From IMG/VR virus record IMGVR_UViG_3300045988_164840: 39,550 nucleotides of DNA; one strand, given 5' to 3'. This DNA comes from a virus. Below are positions 1-9,540 of the stretch, in pieces (position 1 is the stretch's first letter; each line of letters begins with the position of its first letter). A program made the position numbers and the translations under genes. The notes below the pieces were generated by a model. That model was not told where the DNA came from, searched no databases, and was given only the letters and a program-made list of their open reading frames with translations.

Positions 1-3
1 AAC

Positions 4-48
4 AAAAACCCACGCAATTCCGAAAAAGCCTCGAAACTGCGTGGGTTT
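4..48 (-). terminator. Hairpin terminator of the tRNA gene (duplicated copy)
   Basis: Stem 7-16 AACCCACGCA pairs with 38-47 TGCGTGGGTT. On the minus strand it is followed by TTTGTT and lies just 3' of the tRNA CCA end. Confidence 0.7.
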
Positions 49-52
49 TCTC

Positions 53-97
53 TGGTCTGAGTGACCGGACTTGAACCGGCGGCCTCTACCACCCCAA
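53..97 (-). pseudogene. Displaced 3' fragment of tRNA-Pro (anticodon loop to CCA), not a complete tRNA
   Basis: Minus strand reads TTGGGGT-GGTAG-AGGCC-GCCGG-TTCAAGT-CCGGT-CACTCAG-A-CCA. The sequence 5' of it (..tttcc) cannot pair with GGTAG, so there is no anticodon stem, D-arm or acceptor 5' strand here. Confidence 0.8.
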
Positions 98-205
98 GGA
101 AATGTGTTTATTTAAAAAATACCAAGAAAATACTGAAAAAGATCCGGTTTTACAGTGCTTTTTATTTTGAAAAATATGAGATCAATTAAAAAAAACTTCT
201 TAGAA

Positions 206-227
206 TGTCGTAATAGTGTCGTGGTAA
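206..227 (+). promoter_or_regulatory. Putative integrase arm-type binding motifs (left arm)
   Basis: TGTCGTA (206-212) and GTGTCGTGGTAA (216-227). The same two motifs recur at 39430-39436 and 39417-39428 in the right arm. Confidence 0.45.
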
Positions 228-233
228 ATGGAA

Positions 234-1361
234 TCATTTAATGCCAAGAAGATTGCGTGTACTTTCGGTGTCTTCATGAGCATATCGTTTTCTCAACATT
301 TTTAAATCTGCATGTCCTAATACTGTTGCTACTGCAAATAAATTTGCACCGCTGTTTACCCATAATGTTGCACGTGTATGCCTTAATTCATGCGGATGCA
401 ATATTGGTACATCAACGCCCTGTTGCATATAATATGTATGCATATCTTTCATGAACACATCATAATGCCGTCTGCTCCATGTTCGTGGACTTTGTACAGT
501 TCCTTTTTCTGTGCAAAAGACAAATATACTGTTTCTATCTCTATTTTTCAAGATCTCAACAACATCTGAAGAAATTGGGATTTCTCTTTTCCTGAAATCA
601 TTTTTTGGCTTTCCAATAACAATTTTTGATTTTCTTGTATTTGCGTCGACTACATCTGTAACGCCACGTTCTATTTTTAATGTGGCATGTTCAAAATCAA
701 TGTCATCCCATTGAATTCCAAGCAGTTCCGAACGTGTAATCCCATATGACAATAGCAAAATAACATCAAGACCGTATCTATGTGTAGTTGCATATGCAAG
801 TACCATTTTGCACTGCTCTTCTGTGTAAGTTTGTTTTTTTCTTGTCTCTTTTTTGCTTGATAATTTGATGCTGGTGCATGGGTTCACATGGATCAAGCCA
901 TTTTGTAAAGCAGATTCAAAAATTCTTGATAGTGCCATTCTATGCTTTTTTAGCGTTTCTATCGTATATTCATTTGCTTTTTTATTAAAGTAGAGCTGGA
1001 TATCTATCTGCTTTATTTCTTGAATATGTGCTTTTTTGAAATATGGGATCAAGTGATTTTCAATAGAATTTCGATAGGTTAAATTGTAGGAACTATCTTT
1101 CACGGTTCCTTTTAAAGATTCCAAAACTTTTCTTGCCCATGTATCAAAACAGGTTCCGATACTTGTAATAGATTCACCTGTTATGTTTTTGACAGCTTGT
1201 TCAATTTTGTATTGTTCTGCTTTCGCTCTTGCATCTTCTTTGCTCCTTTTGCTGTAAAAGCTTTTGCGGATCAATGTGCCATCAAAATTCTTTCCAACGG
1301 TCACTTTCACTTCATAGCAACCGTCTTTTCTGTTCGGCTTTTCTTTTTTTGGTCTGCCCAT
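234..1361 (-). CDS. int: Tyrosine recombinase / phage integrase
   Basis: 375 aa. C-terminal catalytic pattern ..HPHELRHTRATL..LGHADLKMLRKRYAH (R, H-x-x-R, H, Y). GAGGGAG RBS before the ATG. Adjacent to attL. Confidence 0.95.
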   Translation of the reverse strand: MGRPKKEKPNRKDGCYEVKVTVGKNFDGTLIRKSFYSKRSKEDARAKAEQYKIEQAVKNITGESITSIGTCFDTWARKVLESLKGTVKDSSYNLTYRNSIENHLIPYFKKAHIQEIKQIDIQLYFNKKANEYTIETLKKHRMALSRIFESALQNGLIHVNPCTSIKLSSKKETRKKQTYTEEQCKMVLAYATTHRYGLDVILLLSYGITRSELLGIQWDDIDFEHATLKIERGVTDVVDANTRKSKIVIGKPKNDFRKREIPISSDVVEILKNRDRNSIFVFCTEKGTVQSPRTWSRRHYDVFMKDMHTYYMQQGVDVPILHPHELRHTRATLWVNSGANLFAVATVLGHADLKMLRKRYAHEDTESTRNLLGIK

Positions 1362-1412
1362 TTTTTCGCTCCCTCGTTTGTTTCAATCTATGTCCTCACA
1401 AAAAGGCGACAG

Positions 1413-1441
1413 TTGACAAACGGGAACAAATATGATATAAT
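1413..1441 (+). promoter_or_regulatory. Consensus sigma-A type promoter TTGACA-17-TATAAT with TGn extension
   Basis: TTGACA at 1413-1418, a 17-nt spacer, TATAAT at 1436-1441, TG at 1433-1434. No ORF follows it. Confidence 0.6.
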
Positions 1442-1445
1442 AAAC

Positions 1446-1517
1446 ATTGTCAAATTATATTTTTTTGTTCCCTTAAAAATACCGCCTGTTGTACCAGCAA
1501 CAAGCGGTATTTTTATT
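1446..1517 (+). ncRNA. Candidate ~70-nt small RNA (orphan promoter plus intrinsic terminator)
   Basis: The consensus promoter at 1413-1441 is followed about 30 nt later by a strong terminator hairpin and T-run. There is no start codon or RBS in between. Confidence 0.35.
1479..1517. terminator. Bidirectional rho-independent terminator
   Basis: Stem ATACCGCCTGTTG (1479-1491) pairs with CAACAAGCGGTAT (1498-1510), 12 of 13 bp. TTTTATTT follows on the plus strand and TTTTAAGG on the minus strand. It lies downstream of the AlbA_2 gene stop. Confidence 0.8.
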
Positions 1518-1578
1518 TATATGATATGTTGTAAACAGTTTTAATCCGCATTTAAAAAATAAATGCACTTAGAAAATT

Positions 1579-3225
1579 TTACTTGATTTTATAATAAGCA
1601 AATTTTCCCTTACCAACAAGTATAAGCATTCCGTCTTCTGTCATTTTGACAAGTAGTCGATATGCTTGCCCTTGGTTTAAATGTAGGAGTTGCATAACAT
1701 CTTTTCTTGTCACTTTTCCATAATTGTTTTTTGCAAATTTTAAAATAAGTTCTGGATAACGAATACGATTAATACCCGTCTGTCGTACATACCCAATAAC
1801 ATTATTTGCATTTTTATAAAGTTCTGCACTAAGAATATAGGATCTATTATTTCCGTTTCCATCTGTTTCCACAAGTCCCGATTCAACTAATTTTTCAATA
1901 GTAGTACGTACCTTGTATTCATTGATATGAATCATATGTGTAAGTGATTTAAGTTGTAGTCTTCTATTTGATTTTAAAGCATTTAATATCAGTAAAGCAT
2001 TTATAGATAATGGCCTTCCAATTTTACTTTGTTCTTCTGCAACCATTTTAATGAATGCCTTATCTGGTAAGCTTTTTGGAATAAACAGATTTACAGTGTT
2101 TGAATTGGATTCTGAATAATCAGGTAATGACTTTCCATAGGAAAGAGATCCTTCAAAAATACGATCAATCCCTCTTCCAGTACGTTCTGCAAGACCAATA
2201 CGTTTTAATGCATCAGCAAGTGCAGGATTTCTTCCGTGCGGTTCTGCTGTCAATAGATTTTCAATTGTTACGCCTTCAATAAATCCACCTGGATTACTTA
2301 TTGTTAAGCCATCATCATCCAGTGCAACGCGAATACGTCCCAATATTGTGTAGTCTCGATGGCAAAAGGCATTTACAAGTGCTTCACGAAACGCTCTTTT
2401 ATCAAAATCTGGAATAGAGATACGAAATAATCCTTCCTCCATTTCTTCTGTGTGATTTCTGGCATCCATATAAGATTCTATTTTTTCGAATGCTGTTAGC
2501 ATAGGTAACATAAACGATTCATTTACAACTACATCTGTGCCTTGTAATTCTTGAAATGTTGCTTCAGCAGTCGGAACAAGCATTGAGAGACGTTCTCTAC
2601 GACCAATCAATAACATACCACAATATGTAGGAACAAAAACACCATTTTGTTCTATTGCCAAACGAAGTGCAAGATCTAACTCTGTATCATCAAGATCAAG
2701 TAAAGTTTTTTCACCGTGATAATTTTGTATGATGCTACGAAGATGCTCTCGTTCTACTGGATCTAAATCTGAATATACAGCTTCTGGAACAGGTTGTGCG
2801 GAATAATCCAGCATACGCAATGAAGAAAGTCGTGAATTCATTTCATATGGGTACATAGGTATGTTTTCTGGTTCCCCATCCAACTTAATTCGTCTTCTCA
2901 AAACTTTTCCATTTGAAGCAGCAACAATAGCAGAATATTTTGGAACTGTTATAATCAAATATTTTATGTTATTTGTATCAATAAGTTCAGTATGAACAGC
3001 AACAGGTGGAATTGTTTTATTTGCAATAAATGCTGCCAATTTTGAAGGGTCTTTGTGAGATGGATGTAATCCTGTAATGTCACCATTATCTTCTACGCCA
3101 AGGAAAAATCTGCCACCATTAGTATTTGCAAAAGCAACTACACTTTCAATTATCACGTCATCTGATAATTTTTTTAAATCGCTTTTAAATTCAATGGTTA
3201 TATTTTCTCGGAATCCAATGTTCAT
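1579..3225 (-). CDS. Schlafen/AlbA_2-domain protein with an HATPase_c_4-like segment and C-terminal winged-helix regions (COG2865-type putative regulator)
   Basis: ENITIEFKSDL..VVAFANTNGGRFFLGVEDNG (AlbA_2-like). FREALVNAFCHRDY..ISNPGG..GRNP..AERTGRGI (HATPase_c_4-like). Start trimmed to ATG 3225, which has AAAGGAG 8 nt upstream. Confidence 0.85.
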   Translation of the reverse strand: MNIGFRENITIEFKSDLKKLSDDVIIESVVAFANTNGGRFFLGVEDNGDITGLHPSHKDPSKLAAFIANKTIPPVAVHTELIDTNNIKYLIITVPKYSAIVAASNGKVLRRRIKLDGEPENIPMYPYEMNSRLSSLRMLDYSAQPVPEAVYSDLDPVEREHLRSIIQNYHGEKTLLDLDDTELDLALRLAIEQNGVFVPTYCGMLLIGRRERLSMLVPTAEATFQELQGTDVVVNESFMLPMLTAFEKIESYMDARNHTEEMEEGLFRISIPDFDKRAFREALVNAFCHRDYTILGRIRVALDDDGLTISNPGGFIEGVTIENLLTAEPHGRNPALADALKRIGLAERTGRGIDRIFEGSLSYGKSLPDYSESNSNTVNLFIPKSLPDKAFIKMVAEEQSKIGRPLSINALLILNALKSNRRLQLKSLTHMIHINEYKVRTTIEKLVESGLVETDGNGNNRSYILSAELYKNANNVIGYVRQTGINRIRYPELILKFAKNNYGKVTRKDVMQLLHLNQGQAYRLLVKMTEDGMLILVGKGKFAYYKIK

Positions 3226-3240
3226 TTCAACACTCCTTTT

Positions 3241-3412
3241 ACGCTCGGTGAGCGTTAATACATATTTATTATAGCACAAACGAGCGTTAAAAGCAAGCGT
3301 TAAAATAAAAAAATTGTTTTTCAATGAAAAAAAGTGCGAATTTTCGGAACATTTATAAGTGTCTGGTTTAACGCTCGTTAACACTCGATACGAGCGTTAA
3401 ACCGAGCGTTAA
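3241..3412. promoter_or_regulatory. Array of GAGCGTTAA iterons (putative operators)
   Basis: GAGCGTTAA at 3250, 3282, 3392 and 3404. AAGCGTTAA at 3295. Inverted TTAACGCTC at 3368. Palindrome ACGCTC-GGT-GAGCGT at 3241-3255. Confidence 0.7.
3268..3296 (-). promoter_or_regulatory. Promoter of the AlbA_2-type gene (TTGCTT-17-TATAAT, TGn extended)
   Basis: -10 at 3268-3273 and -35 at 3291-3296 (minus strand). One iteron fills the spacer, one overlaps the -35, and a palindrome sits in the 5' UTR. Confidence 0.6.
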
Positions 3413-3450
3413 ACTGATTTTTTGTAGTTTTAGTGACATATAACACATGC

Positions 3451-3500
3451 AAAAAATCCCACCGGAGCAGGTGCATCAACCGCTTCGATGGGGTTTTTTT
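3451..3500 (-). terminator. Terminator element, copy A (A-run, hairpin, T-run)
   Basis: AAAAAATCCCACCGGAGC-AGGTGCATCAACC-GCTTCGATGGGGTTTTTTT, located 11 nt after the stop of the 3511-4272 gene. About 90% identical to 6415-6462. Confidence 0.8.
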
Positions 3501-3510
3501 ATTTAATACC

Positions 3511-4272
3511 TTATACAAATACATTTTGATTTTCACCAATAGAACTAAATAAAATTGGTTTAATAGCATAGCTTTCAAATGCAACAATATCTTTTTCATT
3601 TATTTTGTTTTCATCGTTTATAATTGTTATTAAAGTACTGCTATCTTCTCTAGCATCCATCGTATCAAGCCAATTAAAGATTGTAGCATCTCTAATTGAT
3701 TTGTTTAAATGATTGATAACTCTACAAAAACGGTCTGTTGGATTGGCTTTATTTCGTTGAAAATGAAAATCGTATGTGTATATATTTTTCGTTTTTCCAA
3801 TTATTGAAAAATCTCTGGTATAATATATTTCATGTTTATCGAAAAATGTAGTAACATCTTCCAAAAACAAACTTTTTACATTGCTTTTTCGTAGTTCAAA
3901 CATATTATCAATCAGCAACATTGCTTGAACCATCATATGCTTTTTTTTCGGAAAATCTTTAATTTTAGAAACGGCTGTAATCGCTTCTCCATCCAGTGTA
4001 AGTCCATAATTATGAATTGTTCTTTCTAAAATTCGCTGTTTTGTAGAATTTTTCTTGAATTGCATGCCACATGCGATAAGATTTCCAATAATATAACCGT
4101 CATCTGTGAAAAATACATCATTTTCATCAACTTGCTTTACATAAATCTGGAGATAATCGTTAAAGCGGTCTAAATATGGAGTTGTTATTTCATAGTATTC
4201 ACCGATTTTTTCAAAAGAGATACTTTTGTTAAGCCAATCGGTATAGGAATCTATCATTTTCTTAATATCCAT
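3511..4272 (-). CDS. DUF1828/DUF1829-like protein (function unknown)
   Basis: 253 aa. N-terminal YYEITTPYLDRFNDYLQIYV..FFTDDGYIIGNL matches my memory of DUF1828 followed by DUF1829. AGGAG RBS present. Lies 24 nt downstream of the preceding gene. Confidence 0.8.
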   Translation of the reverse strand: MDIKKMIDSYTDWLNKSISFEKIGEYYEITTPYLDRFNDYLQIYVKQVDENDVFFTDDGYIIGNLIACGMQFKKNSTKQRILERTIHNYGLTLDGEAITAVSKIKDFPKKKHMMVQAMLLIDNMFELRKSNVKSLFLEDVTTFFDKHEIYYTRDFSIIGKTKNIYTYDFHFQRNKANPTDRFCRVINHLNKSIRDATIFNWLDTMDAREDSSTLITIINDENKINEKDIVAFESYAIKPILFSSIGENQNVFV

Positions 4273-4296
4273 GCTATCAACTCCTTTTTCTGCTTT

Positions 4297-4746
4297 TTAA
4301 AATCCTTTAAGTGATGTTACTTGGGCAATCGTTGGAGGATCTACAATGTGAAATCGTTCAAAAAAGTCCATACAAAGCTCAAGTAAATTTTTGTTGGAAA
4401 CATCAAACGGAATTGCTTCTGTACCATATTCAGCAGAATAGATATGTAGATGTGCCCCTTTTATGTGCGTATCTGTCTTTTCATCATAATGAACTAGGTT
4501 TTTTCCAACATCTAAGCGAAGTAGTACAATTCCTTCTGGCAACCGACCTAAATAAGTACAATTATCAGCATTAATGCCTTTTCTTTGAACATTAACAACA
4601 AAAGACTGATCATCATCAGAAACAACTTCAAATTCAAATCTACCTTTTCCGTTTGGGATATAATACGTTTGGTTTATTACTTTTCTTTTCAATAAGTTTA
4701 TTAGCTCTATTGCTTCTTCCGTGCTTAAAGCAGATTTCTTTGTCAT
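4297..4746 (-). CDS. Hypothetical 149-aa protein with an HxH motif (GAHLHIYSAEYG), possibly DUF6978-like
   Basis: ATG with AAAGGGA RBS, directly downstream of a strong promoter. First gene of a two-gene cassette. The family assignment is tentative. Confidence 0.75.
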   Translation of the reverse strand: MTKKSALSTEEAIELINLLKRKVINQTYYIPNGKGRFEFEVVSDDDQSFVVNVQRKGINADNCTYLGRLPEGIVLLRLDVGKNLVHYDEKTDTHIKGAHLHIYSAEYGTEAIPFDVSNKNLLELCMDFFERFHIVDPPTIAQVTSLKGF

Positions 4747-4763
4747 ATTTATCCCTTTCTATA

Positions 4764-4792
4764 ATTATACCACATTTTTTGCACCTATGCAA
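4764..4792 (-). promoter_or_regulatory. Promoter of the two-gene cassette (TTGCAT-17-TATAAT, TGn extended)
   Basis: -10 at 4764-4769 and -35 at 4787-4792 on the minus strand, with TGG immediately upstream of the -10. Confidence 0.65.
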
Positions 4793-4817
4793 TCTTTTTT
4801 TCAGCAGTTCTTACTTT

Positions 4818-4850
4818 GCCATCTCCATAATCGCATTCATAATCTTCATT
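4818..4850. repeat. 33-bp junction repeat, copy A
   Basis: GCCATCTCCATAATCGCATTCATAATCTTCATT differs from 6383-6414 by 1 substitution and 1 indel. On the minus strand it encodes ..EDYECDYGDG. Confidence 0.85.
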
Positions 4851-4933
4851 TATTAGCATATATATTTAATAAATACTAATCCTTATTTCGTTTTTCAAAT
4901 CGAGATTGAATTCAATTATTTTTTCATTATGAG

Positions 4934-4962
4934 TTGACATGGATAATTAAAAATGCTATAAT
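4934..4962 (+). promoter_or_regulatory. Consensus promoter TTGACA-17-TATAAT (TGn extended)
   Basis: TTGACA at 4934-4939, TATAAT at 4957-4962, TG at 4954-4955. Lies 44 nt upstream of the ATG at 5006. Confidence 0.7.
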
Positions 4963-5005
4963 GAAAATAGAGGATCTCGTTTTTGTCTGCATGGAGGAAA
5001 TAAAA

Positions 5006-5338
5006 ATGAATGAAAATGAAGCACTTACATTATTGAAAAAAATTTTAGATATGACTAATAGAAATGCTTTAGAATGGAATGCCGATGTTACTGAAAATGG
5101 AAATATTAAATATTTTTCTAAAATTCCAAATACTGAATTTCAAATTATTATATTTGAGATAAATGTAACTCCAAAAGTTTTTATTTTAAATAGCAACTAT
5201 GCATTACAGGTAAATTTAAAATCTTTTGAAAATACACCACTCAGTAAAGCTGAAAAAATTACTATTTCTATTATTACCATTGTAAAAAGTCAGATCCATT
5301 CTTATATAAGAAAAAAGTTAAAAGCTGAATTTATCTAA
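5006..5338 (+). CDS. Hypothetical 110-aa protein
   Basis: Start trimmed to ATG 5006 (GGAGG 8 nt upstream). Its N-terminal motif LKKI-x3-T-x-NR-x-L-x-W is shared with the convergent 5318-5731 product. Confidence 0.7.
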   Translation: MNENEALTLLKKILDMTNRNALEWNADVTENGNIKYFSKIPNTEFQIIIFEINVTPKVFILNSNYALQVNLKSFENTPLSKAEKITISIITIVKSQIHSYIRKKLKAEFI

Positions 5339-5731
5339 AAACTGAAATAAATCAGAAACATCTACACAGTATTCGCCTTCTTTTGATTTCCAATACTCTA
5401 TAACATTTTTCCTTAATTCAAATATATGTTCAGTAAGATATTGTGGTATCTCACAAACTCCTGCATTTTTATGAAATACACCCAACAGTTCTATTTTGTC
5501 AGAATATTTAGAATGATAACTTAGCAAAATTAAATAAGCTTCTTCTTTTTTCACAAAAAAAGATTCGAATTCAGTTAATCCATTTTCATATGCTTTCATG
5601 ATATATTCGTTCAGATAGATGCTATCATCATAATACTTATTGTATTCTGAGATAGGTCTCCAATTAAGTTTTCTATTTTTTGTGTTCTCATTTATTTTTT
5701 TAAGATAACCTTCAATTCTATCTGATATCAT
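5318..5731 (-). CDS. Hypothetical 137-aa protein
   Basis: ATG with AAGGA RBS. Overlaps the upstream gene by 14 nt, so the two form an operon. Its 3' end overlaps the convergent 5006-5338 gene by 21 nt. Confidence 0.7.
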   Translation of the reverse strand: MISDRIEGYLKKINENTKNRKLNWRPISEYNKYYDDSIYLNEYIMKAYENGLTEFESFFVKKEEAYLILLSYHSKYSDKIELLGVFHKNAGVCEIPQYLTEHIFELRKNVIEYWKSKEGEYCVDVSDLFQFLDKFSF

Positions 5732-6173
5732 ATATATTTCCTTTCATTTCTAACAACGAGATCATTTCTCCTAATTTCGTAGTTAATTCACTTAGATTCT
5801 CTTTGGTTATATTTCTTGCTTTCTTATAAATCTTTTGACATTTTTTTATAGATGAGATATCCTTTTTGCTCCATTCACCGTTCTTACCGCCAGTTTCAGC
5901 ATAATCTTTCATTTTACATAAAGATTTCATGATAGTTGCATAAATATTGGTATTGTTGATGTCGCCTGATGACATTTGAGAAAAACAAATATTAAGGTTC
6001 TTTTGTAATCCATCATAATCTAATTTAAATCCCTTATCTATCTTTTCTTTCTGTATAGATCTTTCTATATTAGTTGCTTTTATCATTGTAATAAAACTAA
6101 TGATAATTCCACCAACTCCACTGATAATGCCAACAATCCAAGATGTGATCTCAACAATATTTAAAACCGTCAC
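5718..6173 (-). CDS. Hypothetical 151-aa membrane-anchored protein (one N-terminal TM helix)
   Basis: GTG start with AAGGAG 7 nt upstream. The N-terminal segment WIVGIISGVGGIIISFITMI is hydrophobic and the rest is hydrophilic. Confidence 0.7.
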   Translation of the reverse strand: MTVLNIVEITSWIVGIISGVGGIIISFITMIKATNIERSIQKEKIDKGFKLDYDGLQKNLNICFSQMSSGDINNTNIYATIMKSLCKMKDYAETGGKNGEWSKKDISSIKKCQKIYKKARNITKENLSELTTKLGEMISLLEMKGNIYDIR

Positions 6174-6191
6174 ATTTTATCTCCTTATTTT

Positions 6192-6238
6192 CTGCATTGA
6201 AACAGTTGCTCTGTTTTGATGCAGATTTTTTTATTTTT
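6192..6238 (+). terminator. Plus-strand-specific rho-independent terminator
   Basis: CUGCAUUGAAACAG / CUGUUUUGAUGCAG gives a 14-bp stem. Two G-U wobbles pair only in the plus-strand RNA. AUUUUUUUAUUUUU follows. The minus-strand version has two A-C mismatches and no U-run. Confidence 0.8.
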
Positions 6239-6409
6239 CCTCTTCCAATTCATCATAAATCATAGATATGATTTTTACACGTTTTTTCAGCGACAGGCTT
6301 TTTATCAGGTCTAAAAGTTCTGTATCTTCTTTCTGCTGGTTGGAAATTGTGATATTTGTATTTCCACCAGCGACAGCAACACCGCCATCTCCATAATCAC
6401 ATTCATATC
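6231..6409 (-). pseudogene. 3' remnant of a second XRE-type repressor gene (no start codon)
   Basis: The open frame ..YECDYGDGGVAVAGGNTNITISNQQKEDTELLDLIKSLSLKKRVKIISMIYDELEEEK* parallels the C-terminus of the 7042-7452 repressor (GGDNN..VTI..EIEVLLEKMPRSKQLRAIADIIDLLEEK). It is preceded by an in-frame TGA. Confidence 0.6.
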
Positions 6410-6414
6410 TTCAT
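6383..6414. repeat. 33-bp junction repeat, copy B
   Basis: GCCATCTCCATAATCACATTCATATCTTCATT. Here it abuts terminator element copy B directly. Confidence 0.85.
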
Positions 6415-6462
6415 TAAAAATCCCACCAGAGCAGGTGCATCAATCGCTTCGGTGGTTTTTTT
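6415..6462 (-). terminator. Terminator element, copy B
   Basis: AAAAATCCCACCAGAGC-AGGTGCATCAATC-GCTTCGGTGGTTTTTTTT, located 6 nt after the stop at 6468. One stem difference from copy A repairs a C-A mismatch to a C-G pair. Confidence 0.8.
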
Positions 6463-6467
6463 TCATT

Positions 6468-7025
6468 CTAAGAGAGAAGTACAGCTCCTATTTTATCGGT
6501 AAACTTATTTTGTATCAAAAGAACTAAATCATAAATAGAACCTAATCCAAATATGCCAAAAGTTAATAAATATAAGATACCTGTTTTCTTTTTTCCAACA
6601 TAAAATCGATGTAAGCCGGCGATTCCAATAGCATTTAACAGCAACAAGAAAATGGCAACATATTTATTTTTGCTGCTTGCACGAGAGACTGAAGTTGTTT
6701 TGATTCTTGGAGTTGATGGATTTTCGGTTCTATTTGTTTGAGTTTTTCCTTCAAGTTTTTCGGCTTCTTCTCTGATGCCTTGACGTAGTTCTTCACTTTG
6801 TTGATTTAATTTTTCAACTTCTCTATCAAGTTCCTCTATACTCATGTTGGAATATTTTGGTTTTATTTTTGCCTTTTTTGGGACTCTATCATCTATGTAT
6901 CGATCAGCTCGAATTTGAAAAGTTCTTCCACAATTTTTGCAAATAAATCTTGGATCTCCATACGCACTATATCCATGATGATTAACATGGTCTGATCCGC
7001 ATCTGTAACATACCATTGACGACAT
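6468..7025 (-). CDS. Zinc-ribbon, coiled-coil and TM2-domain membrane protein
   Basis: CYRCG..CKNCG zinc ribbon, a charged helical linker, and a C-terminal GLHRFYVGKKKTGILYLLTFGIFGLGSIYD (TM2-like). ATG 7025 has an AAAGGTG RBS. Lies 17 nt downstream of the repressor gene. Confidence 0.8.
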   Translation of the reverse strand: MSSMVCYRCGSDHVNHHGYSAYGDPRFICKNCGRTFQIRADRYIDDRVPKKAKIKPKYSNMSIEELDREVEKLNQQSEELRQGIREEAEKLEGKTQTNRTENPSTPRIKTTSVSRASSKNKYVAIFLLLLNAIGIAGLHRFYVGKKKTGILYLLTFGIFGLGSIYDLVLLIQNKFTDKIGAVLLS

Positions 7026-7041
7026 AAATAACACACCTTTC

Positions 7042-7452
7042 TTATTCTTCCTGATATTTTTCTTCCAACAAATCTATAATATCTGCAATTGCTCGAAGCT
7101 GTTTGGAACGGGGCATTTTTTCCAACAGTACTTCGATTTCCTTGCAGTTGTTTTCTTTTTCAGCAGTCTGCCGGATAGTGACAGAGCCACGATTTTTAAT
7201 CGCTTGGATGCCGTTATTATCTCCGCCTATGTAAGATTCGGACAAAACTGTTGAGTTATCTGTTCTGCCAAGTAAGTAATCAACAGAAACGTTAAAATAA
7301 TCAGCTATTTTCATTAAAACTGAAGAATTAACAGTAGCACCATTCTGCCATTTTTGTTTATTACTTGCACTCATTTTTAGTTCTGCAAGCAAACCACTTA
7401 CAGTAATTCCATTGATTTTGCATAGTTCTGATAAGTTGTCATAAAAGCACAA
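7042..7452 (-). CDS. XRE-family HTH repressor (CI-like, no S24 peptidase domain)
   Basis: HTH_3 pattern LSELCKINGITVSGLLAELKMSASNKQKWQNG..LMKIADYFNVSVDYLLG. The start is probably TTG 7452 (GGGGGT 6 nt upstream). The longer ORF-track N-terminus overlaps the operators. Confidence 0.85.
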   Translation of the reverse strand: MCFYDNLSELCKINGITVSGLLAELKMSASNKQKWQNGATVNSSVLMKIADYFNVSVDYLLGRTDNSTVLSESYIGGDNNGIQAIKNRGSVTIRQTAEKENNCKEIEVLLEKMPRSKQLRAIADIIDLLEEKYQEE

Positions 7453-7487
7453 AATAATACCCCCATTTTTGTGTAAAAAGATGAAAA

Positions 7488-7533
7488 TAACACCATAGTG
7501 TAATTTTTGGTTGACAATCACACTATGGTGTGA
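7488..7533. promoter_or_regulatory. Two operator-like inverted repeats (ACAC-N6-GTGT core)
   Basis: TAACACCATAGTGTAA at 7488-7503 and TCACACTATGGTGTGA at 7518-7533. The second fills the spacer of the rightward promoter. Confidence 0.7.
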
Positions 7534-7539
7534 TATAAT
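7511..7539 (+). promoter_or_regulatory. Rightward consensus promoter TTGACA-17-TATAAT of the switch
   Basis: TTGACA at 7511-7516, TATAAT at 7534-7539. Divergent from the repressor gene. Confidence 0.7.
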
Positions 7540-7802
7540 AAAACCACGGTCGAGATAAAGCACGCTATACCAAATAAAAAAAAGAACGTTTCCGGTTGAT
7601 TTTCATGAGCAAACGGGAAATAAAGCGATTTTCAAGCGTGCTTTACTTTATTGTATCATGTTCCATTTTATTTGTCAATAGAAAGCATATTATTTGCAGA
7701 AATTCTTTGACGATGGAAAATGAAATGTTTAACAAAATCAGTCGAGGACAGGTAGCGGAAAACCCAAACGCTCGACTGAAATTAAAAGAAGGTGGTGAAA
7801 TA

Positions 7803-7994
7803 ATGAAAAACGATGAAAAAAAGGACACCCTGTATCTGTGCGACCCACAGAAAAACACAGAGTGCCCAAAAGGAAATTGTCAGATTCCTGACGGCTGTTT
7901 TCTTACGATAAAGAAAGAATTTGCCGTAACTGATAAAAATGGGAAGCCTATAATTGGGATTGAATTACATCAAGAGCAATCTTCCCAGCAATAG
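7803..7994 (+). CDS. Small Cys-rich protein (63 aa)
   Basis: ATG 7803 follows GAAGGTGG. Contains YLCDPQKNTECPKGNCQIPDGC. The upstream part of the ORF-track frame has no RBS. Confidence 0.55.
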   Translation: MKNDEKKDTLYLCDPQKNTECPKGNCQIPDGCFLTIKKEFAVTDKNGKPIIGIELHQEQSSQQ

Positions 7995-8340
7995 ACATCA
8001 ACGAATTGAGCGATGTGCATCCTAATTTTTTTGCAATTGATTTTGTTTTACTCCAGATACTATTGCTTCTAACATTGTCAAGAAACTGATGCCCATCGTA
8101 GGTTAAGCTGGAATAAATGCACATGTAAATGCTATTATCTGCATTCATTATTTGTGCATTTATCAATCCACCTTGTTCTGCTTTTAAAGTTGTATATGCG
8201 ATTACATTTTTTGGAAAGTCCGGCAGTGCTTTTTCCATATCATCGAGTGTCATAGATTGGTAGTTTAGATTCTCATCGATATTTTCAAATTCTTCGAGTT
8301 CTAACAACAATGACCGTAAGCAATCGTAGTTTAACTTCAT
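7948..8340 (-). CDS. DUF2513-like protein
   Basis: Start ATG 8340 (AAGGGGG RBS). MKLNYDCLRSLLLELEE.. and LTYDGHQFLDNVRSNSIWSKTK resemble DUF2513. Confidence 0.75.
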   Translation of the reverse strand: MKLNYDCLRSLLLELEEFENIDENLNYQSMTLDDMEKALPDFPKNVIAYTTLKAEQGGLINAQIMNADNSIYMCIYSSLTYDGHQFLDNVRSNSIWSKTKSIAKKLGCTSLNSLMSIAGKIALDVIQSQL

Positions 8341-8540
8341 ATCATTCACCCCCTTTCCAGTCAATTTTATCACAATTTGACAGGAAATACAACACCTGCT
8401 GACCTACCGGCAATACGGGGACGATGTGGCAGCATCGTGGGCATTACCTCCAAGCTTTGCCTTTATACTAACAACGCCCGTCGGGAGCGTATCCCGACCC
8501 ACTGCCCGTAAGGGCAATAAAAAATAGAAAGGATGATTGG

Positions 8541-8762
8541 ATGCTGATTGCAGAAAGTTTTAAGAAGACCCGAATCCGGCATGAACTGACACAGGTACAG
8601 CTTGCAAAGGCTCTGGGAATTTCGGACAAGATGGTTAGCCAAATCGAAAATGGCTTTCGCCCACCGTCCGCAGAGATTTTGCGAAACATGGCAGAGCAGC
8701 TGGGTTGTTCCGCTGATGAAATCCTTGGCGTAGAAAAGAAAGGAGAAGATACAAATGAATGA
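8541..8762 (+). CDS. Cro-like XRE HTH regulator
   Basis: 73 aa with the HTH_3 pattern LTQVQLAKALGISDKMVSQIENG. GAAAGGA RBS. First gene of the plus-strand early operon. Confidence 0.85.
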   Translation: MLIAESFKKTRIRHELTQVQLAKALGISDKMVSQIENGFRPPSAEILRNMAEQLGCSADEILGVEKKGEDTNE

Positions 8763-9540
8763 AATTCAGGTATGGAACTATGAGAGTTCCGAAGTTCGGA
8801 CAGTACAGGTGAACGGCGAACCGTGGTTCGTGCTGTCTGATGTGTGCAAAGTGCTGGAATTGTCAACGCCAGCCAGAGTTGCAGAAAGGCTGGAAAAAGA
8901 TGAGGTGAGTCAGACTCACACCATCGACAGAATGGGGAGAGAGCAAAAAACAACCATCATCAATGAATCCGGTTTATACACCGTGATTCTCCGGAGCGAC
9001 AAACCGCAGGCAAAACCATTTCGGAAATGGGTGACATCAGAAGTGCTTCCATCCATCCGCAAACATGGCAGCTATTCCGTGCAGTCGCAGTTTGCGGATC
9101 TGTCCCCACAGCTGCAAGTCTTAATCCAAATGGAAACCCGTCAGAAACAGATAGAAGCCCGTCAGGCAGAGCAGGCAACTGCACTCGCAGGACTGGAACA
9201 GAAGTTGCAGAATACCTGCGAGGTCATCGCTCTGGACAAGACCGCATGGAGAAAAGACAGCGAACACCTGATTAACAAGATTGCACGGGCAACCGGAGAG
9301 GGTTATGGCGGTATTCGGTTAGTTTACGAGGAAATCTATCGTTCCATCGAATCCAGAGCAGACGTTTCCTTGAATACCCGTCTGACCAACAAGCGGAATC
9401 GGATGGCTGGCGAGGGCGTTTGCAAATCGAAACGGGACAAGCTGACACGGGTTGACATCATCGCAGAGGACAAGAAGCTGATTGAAATCTATGTGGCAAT
9501 CGTCAAGGAACTGGCTGTGAAATACGGCGTTTGTGCGTGA
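8755..9540 (+). CDS. Bro-N / antirepressor (Ant-like)
   Basis: WFVLSDVCKVLEL..ESGLYTVILRSDKPQAKPFRKWVTSEVLPSIRKHG is a typical Bro-N domain. It also has a C-terminal Ant-type region. Confidence 0.88.
   Translation: MNEIQVWNYESSEVRTVQVNGEPWFVLSDVCKVLELSTPARVAERLEKDEVSQTHTIDRMGREQKTTIINESGLYTVILRSDKPQAKPFRKWVTSEVLPSIRKHGSYSVQSQFADLSPQLQVLIQMETRQKQIEARQAEQATALAGLEQKLQNTCEVIALDKTAWRKDSEHLINKIARATGEGYGGIRLVYEEIYRSIESRADVSLNTRLTNKRNRMAGEGVCKSKRDKLTRVDIIAEDKKLIEIYVAIVKELAVKYGVCA

What the first reader, a model, noticed from the sequence alone, without database searches (positions are those of the whole stretch)
3511..4792. Self-contained two-gene cassette (HxH protein plus DUF1828/DUF1829-like protein) in the int-proximal cargo position
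A strong extended -10 promoter (4764-4792) drives a 149-aa protein containing RLDVGKNLVHYDEKTDTHIKGAHLHIYSAEYG. A 253-aa DUF1828/DUF1829-like protein follows after 24 nt, and a dedicated terminator (3451-3500) closes the unit.

Neither protein has a known function. The unit is AT-rich relative to the phage core and is expressed independently of the lytic operons. It occupies the int-to-repressor slot where temperate Firmicutes phages carry superinfection-exclusion and defence genes. It is also flanked by junction sequences reused elsewhere in the island. This makes it a candidate for an undescribed prophage-encoded defence or exclusion pair.
Basis: inference. Interest (0 to 1): 0.65.

Follow-up and report, generated by a model that had tools for sequence, protein, structure and literature searches.

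The report
Prophage two-gene candidate defence cassette
A small two-gene unit with its own promoter and terminator sits in this prophage's lysogeny region; it belongs to a widespread gene pair already listed as an untested anti-phage defence candidate (PADLOC PDC-M24), whose larger protein looks like a DNA-cutting enzyme.

Summary
On the minus strand lie an extended -10 promoter (4792-4764), gene A (4746-4297, 149 aa, DUF6978), a 24-nt gap, gene B (4272-3511, 253 aa, DUF1828+DUF1829) and a strong hairpin terminator (3503-3452). GC is about 31% against 40-50% in the phage core.

An unrelated IMG/VR phage shares exactly window 3453-4802 at 98.9% identity and nothing next to it, so the unit moves as a promoter-to-terminator cassette.

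The pair is not undescribed. Both proteins match PADLOC candidate PDC-M24 (A 9e-21, B 4.5e-77), one of 145 untested "guilt-by-embedding" candidates. No held paper or NCBIfam model gives a function.

A lies directly upstream of B in 34 of 38 assessable genome loci across Bacteria and Archaea, and in all assessable viral loci. The pair recurs between repressor and integrase in many temperate phages, including Lj965, S. aureus phage 37 and Javan197, and once inside a type I R-M operon.

B models well and resembles PD-(D/E)xK nucleases by fold. A has a conserved His triad and no recognisable fold relative. Natural A-null variants keep an intact B, which argues against "B toxin, A antitoxin".

Best reading: a lysogen-expressed defence or exclusion module with B as nuclease. 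This is inferred, not shown. It is a new member of a catalogued candidate family, of moderate interest.

The parts
4764..4792 (-). Promoter of the cassette: TTGCAT (-35, 3 of 6 matches), 17-nt spacer, TGgTATAAT (perfect extended -10). The leader is short, with an AAAGGGA ribosome-binding site 7 nt before the ATG of gene A.
   Evidence: Sequence read. TGNTATAAT is enriched 12 against 2.2 expected in the window. The promoter is conserved within the 98.9% block shared with L065.
4297..4746 (-). Gene A: 149 aa, DUF6978 / PDC-M24A. A small, mostly beta protein with a conserved His triad (H86, H99, H101) and K20.
3511..4272 (-). Gene B: 253 aa, DUF1828 (N-terminal) plus DUF1829 (C-terminal) / PDC-M24B. 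The C-terminal half has alpha-beta-beta-beta-alpha-beta topology and resembles PD-(D/E)xK nucleases by fold.
3452..3503 (-). Intrinsic terminator closing the cassette. The A-run / hairpin / U-run layout could work in both directions. It is also a repeated junction element (copy T' at 6416-6467).
3453..4802 (-). Extent of the mobile block: the exact stretch shared at 98.9% identity with IMG/VR contig IMGVR_UViG_3300013382_000025 (L065), whose flanks differ on both sides.
   Evidence: blastn.
4818..4841 (.). Junction repeat X, just upstream of the promoter. A 96% identical copy X' lies at 6384-6407, next to T'.
6384..6467 (.). X' (6384-6407) plus T' (6416-6467): a second copy of both cassette junction sequences, lying side by side downstream of the TM2 gene.

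Best explanation
The region is an autonomous two-gene accessory ('moron') cassette of a temperate Bacillota prophage. It is transcribed from its own extended -10 promoter on the lysogeny strand and closed by its own terminator, so it is probably expressed in the lysogen.

It is a member of the widespread A-B gene pair that PADLOC catalogues as phage defence candidate PDC-M24.

The most likely function is protection of the lysogen, or of any cell carrying the pair, against incoming foreign DNA or phage. B would be the effector. Its C-terminal DUF1829 domain has a PD-(D/E)xK nuclease fold with conserved acidic residues. Its very conserved N-terminal DUF1828 domain would serve as a sensing or partner-binding module. 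A, a small His-triad (probably metal-binding) protein made from the same transcript, would act with B as its activator, sensor or specificity partner rather than as an antidote.

Shown here:
- the anatomy of the cassette;
- its mobility as a block;
- family membership;
- conserved A-then-B linkage;
- recurrent position in the lysogeny module;
- the nuclease-like fold of B.

Inferred:
- expression in the lysogen;
- the defence function;
- nuclease activity of B;
- an A-B complex and the role of A.
For: Anatomy and mobility:
- The block 3453-4802 is shared at 98.9% with L065. There it lies between a repressor homologue and HicB-like plus serine-recombinase genes, not next to the Schlafen-like gene and tyrosine integrase of this window.

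Family:
- PADLOC PDC-M24A scores 8.6e-21 and PDC-M24B 4.5e-77. No named defence system scores.
- PDCs are defined as genes embedded in BREX, DISARM or type I R-M systems.
- I found the pair between HsdS and a downstream 930-aa gene in L061 and L062.

Linkage:
- A lies directly upstream of B, on the same strand, in 34 of 44 genome loci. That is 34 of 38 loci with a full-length B and upstream sequence available.
- The host taxa span Bacillota, Bacteroidota, Planctomycetota, Acidobacteriota, Actinomycetota, Pseudomonadota and three archaeal lineages.
- All assessable viral loci carry both genes.
- Pairwise identities of A and B correlate across 57 distinct pairs (r = 0.895; 0 of 999 permutations reach it).

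Position:
- In 18 distinct phage loci with sequence downstream of B, the three ORFs after B include 9 tyrosine integrases and 4 serine recombinases.
- In the 20 loci, the three ORFs before A include 12 HTH_3 proteins, 6 of them with Peptidase_S24.
- In L056 the cI-like repressor ends 8 nt before A.
- Lj965, S. aureus phage 37 and Javan197 carry the pair between repressor and integrase.
- Genes sharing the slot include HicAB, ParE/YafQ, Abi_alpha, SocA and a superinfection-exclusion gene.

B as a nuclease-like protein:
- The AlphaFold2 model has pLDDT 86.5.
- Foldseek against PDB returns almost only PD-(D/E)xK nucleases: VC1899, Cdn1, Can2, Card1, BstEII, NucS, PspGI, MspJI, Cas4 and the R2 restriction-like endonuclease domain. 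E-values run from 2e-3 to 0.1, with probabilities up to 0.99.
- BFVD gives phage 'Endonuclease I', DUF559 and PD-(D/E)XK proteins, with target-normalised TM-scores (TMt) up to 0.82 on single-domain hits.
- Acidic and basic positions are conserved: D139, D/E168, E/D180-R181, D203, R208, N219-D220.

A is not an antidote to B:
- Identical B genes occur with A intact (L069) and with A broken by a 4-nt slippage (L067, L068, L070, L071).
- An IS element splits A from an intact B in L097.
- Four loci carry B only.
Against: - No experiment supports defence. PDC-M24 is explicitly untested.
- The fold matches for B are weak in E-value and TM-score (0.24-0.39 against PDB). No canonical (D/E)xK triplet is visible: E180 is followed by R181 and then a hydrophobic residue.
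- No nuclease family is detected by sequence, even at permissive thresholds.
- The A model is poor (pLDDT 63) and has no fold relative, so its role is a guess.
- One lineage (Javan197) lacks the HxH motif.
- Chromosomal neighbours are often housekeeping genes, such as addAB/trp, leuS, and others including cpn60 and IMPDH. Association with defence islands is therefore not general.
- Promoter activity in the lysogen was not measured.
Confidence: 0.5

Rival explanations
1. The pair is a toxin-antitoxin (addiction) module whose main role is to stabilise the prophage or other mobile DNA. A (small, upstream) would be the toxin and B (larger, nuclease-fold, DNA-binding) the antitoxin or regulator, arranged as in hicAB, higBA and mqsRA, where the toxin gene comes first.
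For: - It is a compact two-gene operon with abutting genes.
- Its distribution is patchy, mobile and cross-domain, and it is often dropped among housekeeping genes.
- It sits next to genuine TA pairs (HicAB, ParE/YafQ) in the same prophage slot.
- B is tolerated alone, while A was never seen without B wherever the contig allowed a check. This is the pattern expected if A is the harmful partner.
- The DUF1829-containing DS-6B of HipAD is proposed to be the antitoxin-like partner of a kinase toxin.
Against: - Neither protein matches any toxin or antitoxin family in Pfam, PADLOC or NCBIfam.
- B has no HTH, RHH or other classical antitoxin DNA-binding domain.
- B is the more conserved and enzyme-like partner.
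- TA function and defence are not mutually exclusive, so this rival partly overlaps the best explanation.
Confidence: 0.2
2. B is a stand-alone restriction-type enzyme, modification-dependent as in type IV systems, or a selfish homing-type nuclease. A is a dispensable accessory. The module acts directly on incoming DNA without abortive infection.
For: - Fold hits include MspJI, BstEII, PspGI and Kpn2I.
- No methyltransferase belongs to the pair, as in type IV systems.
- B-only loci and A-null variants persist.
- The pair is embedded in a type I R-M operon, as GmrSD-like enzymes are.
Against: - A is retained upstream of B in 34 of 38 assessable genome loci and tracks B in divergence (r = 0.895). 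This is hard to reconcile with a dispensable accessory.
- No recognisable modified-base reader domain, such as SRA, was identified. The top hit for the N-terminal part is an uncharacterised protein.
Confidence: 0.12
3. The pair is part of the phage's own lysogeny machinery, for example control of the switch, of excision or of prophage induction, rather than cargo.
For: It lies between repressor and integrase in many phages and is sometimes co-transcribed with the cI-like repressor.
Against: - The same pair occurs with no phage genes nearby: between addAB and the trp operon, next to leuS, inside a type I R-M operon, and in archaeal and actinobacterial chromosomes.
- Closely related phages differ in having it or not, and it moves as a cassette between phages with different integrases.
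- In this window it has its own promoter and terminator.
Confidence: 0.05

Closest known systems
PADLOC phage defence candidate PDC-M24 (PADLOC-DB v2; PDC set described in Payne et al., bioRxiv 10.1101/2024.01.29.577857)
   Same: Both proteins match the two PDC-M24 component models over their full length (A 2-142 of 148 profile positions; B 3-245 of 255). They are adjacent, on the same strand and in A-then-B order. I also recovered the embedding that defines the class, HsdM-HsdS-A-B.
   Different: Nothing structural differs. This copy is phage-borne, in the lysogeny module, with a private promoter and terminator. The catalogue entry is an untested prediction with no mechanism, so membership says nothing about how it works.
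HipAD / DS-6 (DefensePredictor, Science 2026, PMC13092281)
   Same: Its second protein, DS-6B, carries a DUF1829 domain. It is a validated two-gene anti-phage system in which the DUF1829 protein is predicted to bind its partner and DNA.
   Different: DS-6B combines DUF3037 with DUF1829, not DUF1828. Its partner is a HipA-family kinase, not DUF6978. There is no kinase here.
PD-(D/E)xK effector nucleases of defence systems (Card1, Can2, Cdn1, VC1899, Cas4, NucS, type II/IV restriction enzymes)
   Same: The predicted fold of B's C-terminal half has the alpha-beta-beta-beta-alpha-beta core. These proteins dominate both Foldseek lists.
   Different: There is no detectable sequence similarity, no CARF or other known sensor domain, and no canonical (D/E)xK triplet. 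TM-scores are low.
Prophage lysogeny-module exclusion and defence cargo (for example lambda rexAB co-transcribed with cI, and sie genes of lactic-acid-bacterium phages; from established knowledge)
   Same: It lies between repressor and integrase, on the lysogeny strand, AT-rich, with an independent promoter or co-transcribed with cI.
   Different: There is no sequence or domain relationship to Rex or Sie proteins. Neither protein has a predicted membrane segment. The pair is also common outside phages.

Membership tests
PADLOC PDC-M24 (candidate system) | A protein matching a PDC-M24A model | tested here: met
   PDLC04536 E 8.6e-21, covering 2-142 of the protein and 2-143 of 148 profile positions.
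PADLOC PDC-M24 (candidate system) | A protein matching a PDC-M24B model | tested here: met
   PDLC04539 E 4.5e-77, 257 bits, covering 3-245 of the protein and 4-246 of 255 profile positions.
PADLOC PDC-M24 (candidate system) | The two genes are adjacent and co-oriented | tested here: met
   24-nt gap, both on the minus strand. The same arrangement holds in 34 of 38 assessable genome loci.
PADLOC PDC-M24 (candidate system) | Family members are found embedded in BREX, DISARM or type I R-M systems (the basis of the PDC class) | tested here: met
   L061 and L062 read HsdM(N6_Mtase)-HsdS(Methylase_S)-A-B-930 aa ORF.
Anti-phage defence system (functional class) | Reduces phage infection when expressed | not testable with these tools
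   PDCs are stated to be untested. No paper in the held library names PDC-M24.
Pfam DUF6978 | Score above the gathering threshold over the whole domain | tested here: met
   69.7 bits against 29.6, profile positions 1-133 of 133.
Pfam DUF1828 + DUF1829 architecture | Both domains score above the gathering threshold, in N-to-C order | tested here: met
   81.1 bits against 22 (residues 31-121) and 65.8 against 22.2 (residues 159-243).
PD-(D/E)xK nuclease superfamily | Alpha-beta-beta-beta-alpha-beta core fold | tested here: inconclusive
   The AlphaFold2 secondary structure for residues 129-218 fits. Foldseek lists are dominated by PD-(D/E)xK enzymes, with probabilities up to 0.99, but E-values are only 2e-3 to 0.1 and query-normalised TM-scores against PDB 0.24-0.39. 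BFVD single-domain hits reach target-normalised TM-scores (TMt) up to 0.82. Coordinates could not be inspected.
PD-(D/E)xK nuclease superfamily | Catalytic D ... (D/E)xK motif | tested here: inconclusive
   D139, D/E168, E/D180 and R181 are conserved, but position 182 is hydrophobic, so there is no canonical ExK.
PD-(D/E)xK nuclease superfamily | Metal-dependent nuclease activity | not testable with these tools
   Needs biochemistry.
Type II toxin-antitoxin with A as antitoxin and B as toxin | The toxin gene cannot persist intact without a functional antitoxin | tested here: not met
   An identical B occurs with a frameshifted A in L067, L068, L070 and L071. An IS element splits A from B in L097. 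Four loci carry B only.
Type II toxin-antitoxin (any polarity) | Match to a known toxin or antitoxin family, or an HTH/RHH antitoxin DNA-binding domain | tested here: not met
   No such hit in Pfam, PADLOC, PHROGs or NCBIfam.
HipAD / DS-6 | HipA-family kinase partner plus a DUF3037-DUF1829 protein | tested here: not met
   No kinase and no DUF3037 are present. Only DUF1829 is shared.

The most novel reading that the evidence does not exclude
The DUF6978 / DUF1828-DUF1829 pair is a genuine, mechanistically new immune module found in both Bacteria and Archaea. In it, a small His-triad metalloprotein with an unclassified fold senses infection or a phage product and switches on, or directs, a divergent PD-(D/E)xK nuclease. 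Temperate phages of gut and pathogenic Bacillota (including S. aureus phage 37, L. johnsonii Lj965 and streptococcal Javan phages) carry it next to the repressor to exclude competing phages.
Probability: 0.35. Interest if true: 0.65.

Novelty: new member of a known kind. Interest (0 to 1): 0.45.

Why it matters
If the pair is a working defence system, it would turn an untested catalogue entry (PDC-M24) into a characterised system. The family is large: the A family alone has 766 clusters at 50% identity, found in Bacteria and Archaea. It is carried by temperate phages of medically and industrially relevant Bacillota, where it would shape superinfection immunity and the outcome of phage therapy.

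It would also assign a function to three Pfam domains of unknown function, including DUF1829, which was recently implicated in the validated HipAD system.

This window offers a compact, naturally delimited 1.35-kb construct with native promoter and terminator that could be cloned directly.

Tried and rejected
1. Sequence search of the A and B profiles against PDB gave nothing usable. A had no hit or only noise. B had one chance-level hit, 6det at E 0.057.
2. The structure of A is poor (pLDDT 62.7). Foldseek gave only LolB-like noise at E of 0.08 or worse, so no fold assignment was made.
3. Permissive Pfam scans of 27 A and 42 B homologues showed no recurrent second family. An idea from memory, that the H..NP..HxH motif of A might relate to DUF4160, found no support and was dropped.
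4. Bulk Pfam and PADLOC scanning of 148 neighbour ORFs from genome loci gave very heterogeneous neighbours, with a few type I S subunits, MADS, AAA_21 and Peptidase_M78 but mostly housekeeping genes. The summary format gives no enrichment statistic, so I do not claim defence-island enrichment and did not scan the second batch.
5. tblastn of A against cultured phages found nothing. The A genes of Lj965, phage 37 and Javan197 were recovered only with profile HMMs.
6. Literature searches for PDC-M24, DUF6978, DUF1828, DUF1829, HipAD and Lj965 transcription found no functional study of the pair.
7. 'B toxin, A antitoxin' was rejected because of the natural A-null variants with intact B.
8. A core lysogeny function was rejected because the pair also occurs in non-phage contexts.
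Full report
**1. What is in the sequence**

On the minus strand, ORF 4746..4297 encodes 149 aa and contains the quoted HxH stretch. After 24 nt, which include an AAAGGAG ribosome-binding site, ORF 4272..3511 encodes 253 aa.

Upstream lies TTGCAT, a 17-nt spacer, then TGgTATAAT (4792-4764). The -35 matches only 3 of 6 positions, so the two-hexamer scan did not list it. The extended -10 is perfect. TGNTATAAT occurs 12 times in the window against 2.2 expected (0 of 100 shuffles reach 12). All copies lie in 1-7.6 kb or 36.8-39.3 kb, the two accessory ends of the prophage.

Downstream, the RNA over 3512-3445 folds into a hairpin of -21.2 kcal/mol (z = -2.75), flanked by an A-run and a U-run. GC is 0.31 here against 0.40-0.52 in the 9-37 kb core.

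The integrase (234-1361), a Schlafen/AlbA_2-HATPase_c_4-wHTH gene (1579-3384), a TM2 gene (6468-7034) and an HTH repressor (7042-7563) are all on the same strand.

**2. It is a discrete mobile cassette**

blastn of window 1-9000 against related loci gave the following:
- IMG/VR contig L065 shares exactly 3453-4802 at 98.9% identity (1350 nt), that is, terminator to just beyond the promoter.
- Beyond the promoter end of the block, the next similarity in L065 is to the repressor gene (window 7055-7311, 87%), only about 40 nt away. Beyond the terminator end there is none.
- In L065 the block is followed by a HicB-like gene and a serine recombinase, not by the Schlafen-like gene and tyrosine integrase.
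- Close relatives L045-L051 keep the larger block from the integrase to the three small ORFs at about 91%.
- L100-L103 have a ParE/YafQ toxin-antitoxin pair between B and the integrase.

The two junction sequences are repeated in the window. The terminator element T (3452-3503) resembles T' (6416-6467, 88%). A 24-mer X (4818-4841) resembles X' (6384-6407, 96%). X' and T' lie side by side. The 1.5-kb segment 4842-6383 is thus bracketed by X copies, and the cassette is bracketed by sequences that occur together elsewhere. This is consistent with module shuffling by recombination at shared junctions.

**3. Family assignment**

- A is Pfam DUF6978 (E 4e-19). B is DUF1828 plus DUF1829.
- In PADLOC-DB the only matches are PDC-M24A (8.6e-21) and PDC-M24B (4.5e-77), both full length.
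- PHROGs gives only families of unknown function. NCBIfam release 20 (June 2026) has no model for either protein.
- PDC systems are 145 single-gene and multi-gene 'phage defence candidates'. They were derived from genes embedded in BREX, DISARM and type I R-M systems, are explicitly untested, and were added to PADLOC for future study (10.1101/2024.01.29.577857).
- No paper in the held library names PDC-M24.
- The only functional mention of any of the three DUFs is DUF1829 in DS-6B of the validated HipAD system. There it is paired with DUF3037 and a HipA-like kinase (PMC13092281).

The pair is therefore catalogued but uncharacterised.

**4. Co-occurrence**

A profile of B recovered 44 loci from one-genome-per-species contigs. 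A profile HMM of A finds an A gene directly upstream, on the same strand and ending within about 10 nt of B, in 34 of them. The other ten divide as follows:
- two have B at a contig edge;
- four carry only B fragments;
- four carry a full-length B without A. These remain negative with a deeper 95-sequence A profile.

The hosts span Bacillota, Bacteroidales, Synergistaceae, Planctomycetota, Acidobacteriota, Actinomycetota, Myxococcota, Alphaproteobacteria and three archaeal lineages.

In IMG/VR, every locus found with either profile has both genes where the contig allows a check. One locus has B inverted.

An exhaustive HMM search finds 766 A-family clusters at 50% identity. The 150 best hits that are listed are nearly all about 145-150 aa, so no domain fusion is evident.

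Pairwise identities of A and B across 57 distinct pairs correlate (r = 0.895; 0 of 999 permutations reach it). The two genes are inherited as a unit.

**5. Genomic position**

- In 18 distinct phage or prophage loci with sequence downstream of B, the three ORFs after B include 9 tyrosine integrases and 4 serine recombinases.
- In the 20 distinct phage or prophage loci, the three ORFs before A include 12 Cro/CI-type HTH proteins, 6 of them with Peptidase_S24.
- In L056 a cI-like repressor ends 8 nt before A. In L053 the order is repressor-A-B-integrase.
- Cultured phages show the same arrangement. These are L. johnsonii prophage Lj965 (Ljo_0292/0291, next to a gene annotated as superinfection exclusion), S. 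aureus phage 37 (ORF031/ORF014) and Streptococcus phage Javan197 (0003/0002). Their A genes were confirmed by HMM, with E-values from 1e-26 to 5e-17.
- Outside phages, the pair is embedded in a type I R-M operon, HsdM-HsdS-A-B. It also occurs between addAB and the trp operon, and next to leuS.
- A bulk scan of 148 neighbour ORFs shows mostly unrelated housekeeping families.

The pair behaves like an autonomous, horizontally mobile module with a strong preference for the lysogeny module of temperate phages. I do not claim general enrichment in defence islands.

**6. The proteins**

B:
- It models well (pLDDT 86.5). An N-terminal domain forms a four-strand meander with helices. A C-terminal domain (129-252) has alpha-beta-beta-beta-alpha-beta-alpha-beta-alpha topology.
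- Foldseek against PDB returns almost only PD-(D/E)xK nucleases: VC1899, Cdn1, Can2, Card1, BstEII, NucS, PspGI, MspJI, Cas4, the R2 restriction-like endonuclease domain and HamA. Probabilities reach 0.99, but E-values are 2e-3 or weaker and TM-scores low.
- BFVD returns DUF1828 phage proteins (E 3e-13). It also returns small phage proteins with target-normalised TM-scores (TMt) up to 0.82, several named Endonuclease I, DUF559, restriction endonuclease or PD-(D/E)XK.
- Across 42-64 diverse B sequences the invariant or near-invariant positions are P32, D35, N38, D39, Y44, D57, G69 and Q116 in DUF1828. In DUF1829 they are F136, D139, G159, G162, D/E168, E/D180, R181, D203, R208, N219 and D220.
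- The acidic cluster is compatible with a metal-dependent active site, but there is no canonical ExK.
- Sequence-level searches detect no nuclease family.

A:
- It models poorly (pLDDT 63). It is predicted as an N-terminal helix, about nine beta strands and a C-terminal helix, with no fold relative.
- Across 95 sequences of 23-43% identity, the invariant or near-invariant positions are K20, P31, L75, H86, N88, P89, H99, H101 and A111. These form an H-x12-H-x-H triad that suggests metal binding.
- The window's A keeps the three histidines but has YDEK in place of xNPD.
- The Javan197 A has R and N in place of the HxH motif.

**7. Which partner is dangerous?**

Three lines of evidence show an intact B without a functional A:
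- a 4-nt ATTA slippage frameshift in A in four IMG/VR contigs from different samples, while a fifth contig with an identical B has an intact A;
- an IS element inserted between a truncated A and an intact B in a 2.9-Mb contig;
- four genome loci with B only.

A without B was never seen where a check was possible.

This rules out 'B toxin, A antitoxin'. Two readings remain. In one, B is an effector that is inert until A, or a signal relayed through A, activates it. In the other, A is the harmful partner and B its regulator.

**8. Most likely mechanism**

I favour a lysogen-expressed defence or exclusion module in which B is the nuclease effector and A its co-factor or sensor (confidence about 0.5).

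The shown steps are the anatomy, the mobility, the membership, the linkage, the position and the nuclease-like fold of B. Defence itself, catalysis by B, formation of a complex and the role of A are inferred.

The rivals are:
- a toxin-antitoxin or addiction module with A as the toxin (0.2);
- a type IV-like or selfish nuclease with an accessory A (0.12);
- a core lysogeny function (0.05), disfavoured by the non-phage contexts.

**9. Verdict**

The claim of 'undescribed' is wrong, because the pair is PADLOC PDC-M24.

This is a new member of a catalogued but untested candidate family. Its value lies in the clean natural construct and in the comparative facts assembled here: cross-domain linkage, placement in the lysogeny module in cultured phages, the nuclease fold of B, the His triad of A, and the A-null variants. 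Interest is 0.45.

Noticed in passing
window 1579-3384 (-), probable true start near 3225; TGCTATAAT at 3276-3268: A Schlafen/AlbA_2 + HATPase_c_4 + winged-helix protein lies between the cassette and the integrase. It is 601 aa as the longest ORF and 548 aa in relatives. It has its own extended -10 and weak PADLOC matches to pAgo-associated (Aga) and pAgo models (E 5e-13 and 6e-11). It is probably a second, independent defence-type accessory gene. It is absent next to the cassette in L065 and in L100-L103.
   Followed up: partly
window 3452-3503 / 6416-6467 and 4818-4841 / 6384-6407: The terminator element and a 24-mer upstream of the cassette promoter each have a second copy, and those copies lie side by side downstream of the TM2 gene. 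The 1.5-kb segment 4842-6383 (three small ORFs) is bracketed by the 24-mer. This suggests accessory-gene modules are exchanged by recombination at shared junctions.
   Followed up: partly
L066 (IMGVR_UViG_3300045988_132888) against window 4728-4802 and 6464-7384: Relative to the window, L066 lacks 4803-6463. It carries the segment [6464-7333 + 4736-4802] inverted with respect to the cassette. The breakpoints fall inside the repressor gene and at the start of gene A, which loses its first residues. This is either a real inversion or a misassembly.
   Followed up: no
window, all TGNTATAAT sites: Extended -10 motifs are about five-fold over-represented. They are confined to 1.4-7.5 kb and 36.8-39.3 kb, with none in the roughly 29-kb structural and replication core. 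Both prophage ends therefore look like arrays of independently transcribed accessory genes.
   Followed up: partly
window 4934-5338 (+), 5318-5731 (-), 5718-6173 (-): Three small ORFs (134, 137 and 151 aa) have no significant match in Pfam, PADLOC, PHROGs or NCBIfam. The first is driven by a perfect TTGACA-17-TGcTATAAT promoter (4934-4962), divergent from the cassette promoter. The block is conserved in relatives L045-L052.
   Followed up: no
window 6468-7034 (-): A protein with an IS1/InsA-like zinc ribbon, a coiled-coil stretch and a C-terminal TM2 membrane domain lies directly downstream of the repressor. It is closed by the T' terminator. It is absent from relatives L045-L052, but TM2 genes occupy the same slot in L100 and L102.
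   Followed up: no
L067, L068, L070, L071 against L069 (IMG/VR); L097: Gene A is inactivated by loss of one unit of an ATTAATTA tandem in four contigs from different samples, while B is identical to that of the intact copy. In L097 a DDE transposase gene sits between a truncated A (103 aa) and an intact B.
   Followed up: yes
L039, L040 (Vicinamibacterales chromosomes), about 5944-6369: B is truncated after the DUF1828 domain, exactly where an ABC/AAA-type ATPase gene begins. That gene is followed by an ORF of unknown family, and in L040 a very large helicase-like ORF lies upstream. It looks like defence-island turnover that destroyed the pair. The neighbours were judged by eye only.
   Followed up: no
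L092 (IMGVR_UViG_3300029129_000191) 5788-7122: This is the only locus where A and B are convergent (tail to tail) rather than co-oriented. Both reading frames are intact.
   Followed up: no
L096 3427-3897 (Streptococcus phage Javan197_0003): This A-family member has GNRINIF where the family has GxHLHIY, so two of the three conserved histidines are lost. Either the triad is not essential in all lineages or this copy is degenerate.
   Followed up: no
window 1-39550: ARAGORN finds no tRNA or tmRNA gene in the window, so the integration site next to the integrase is not an intact tRNA gene within the window.
   Followed up: yes
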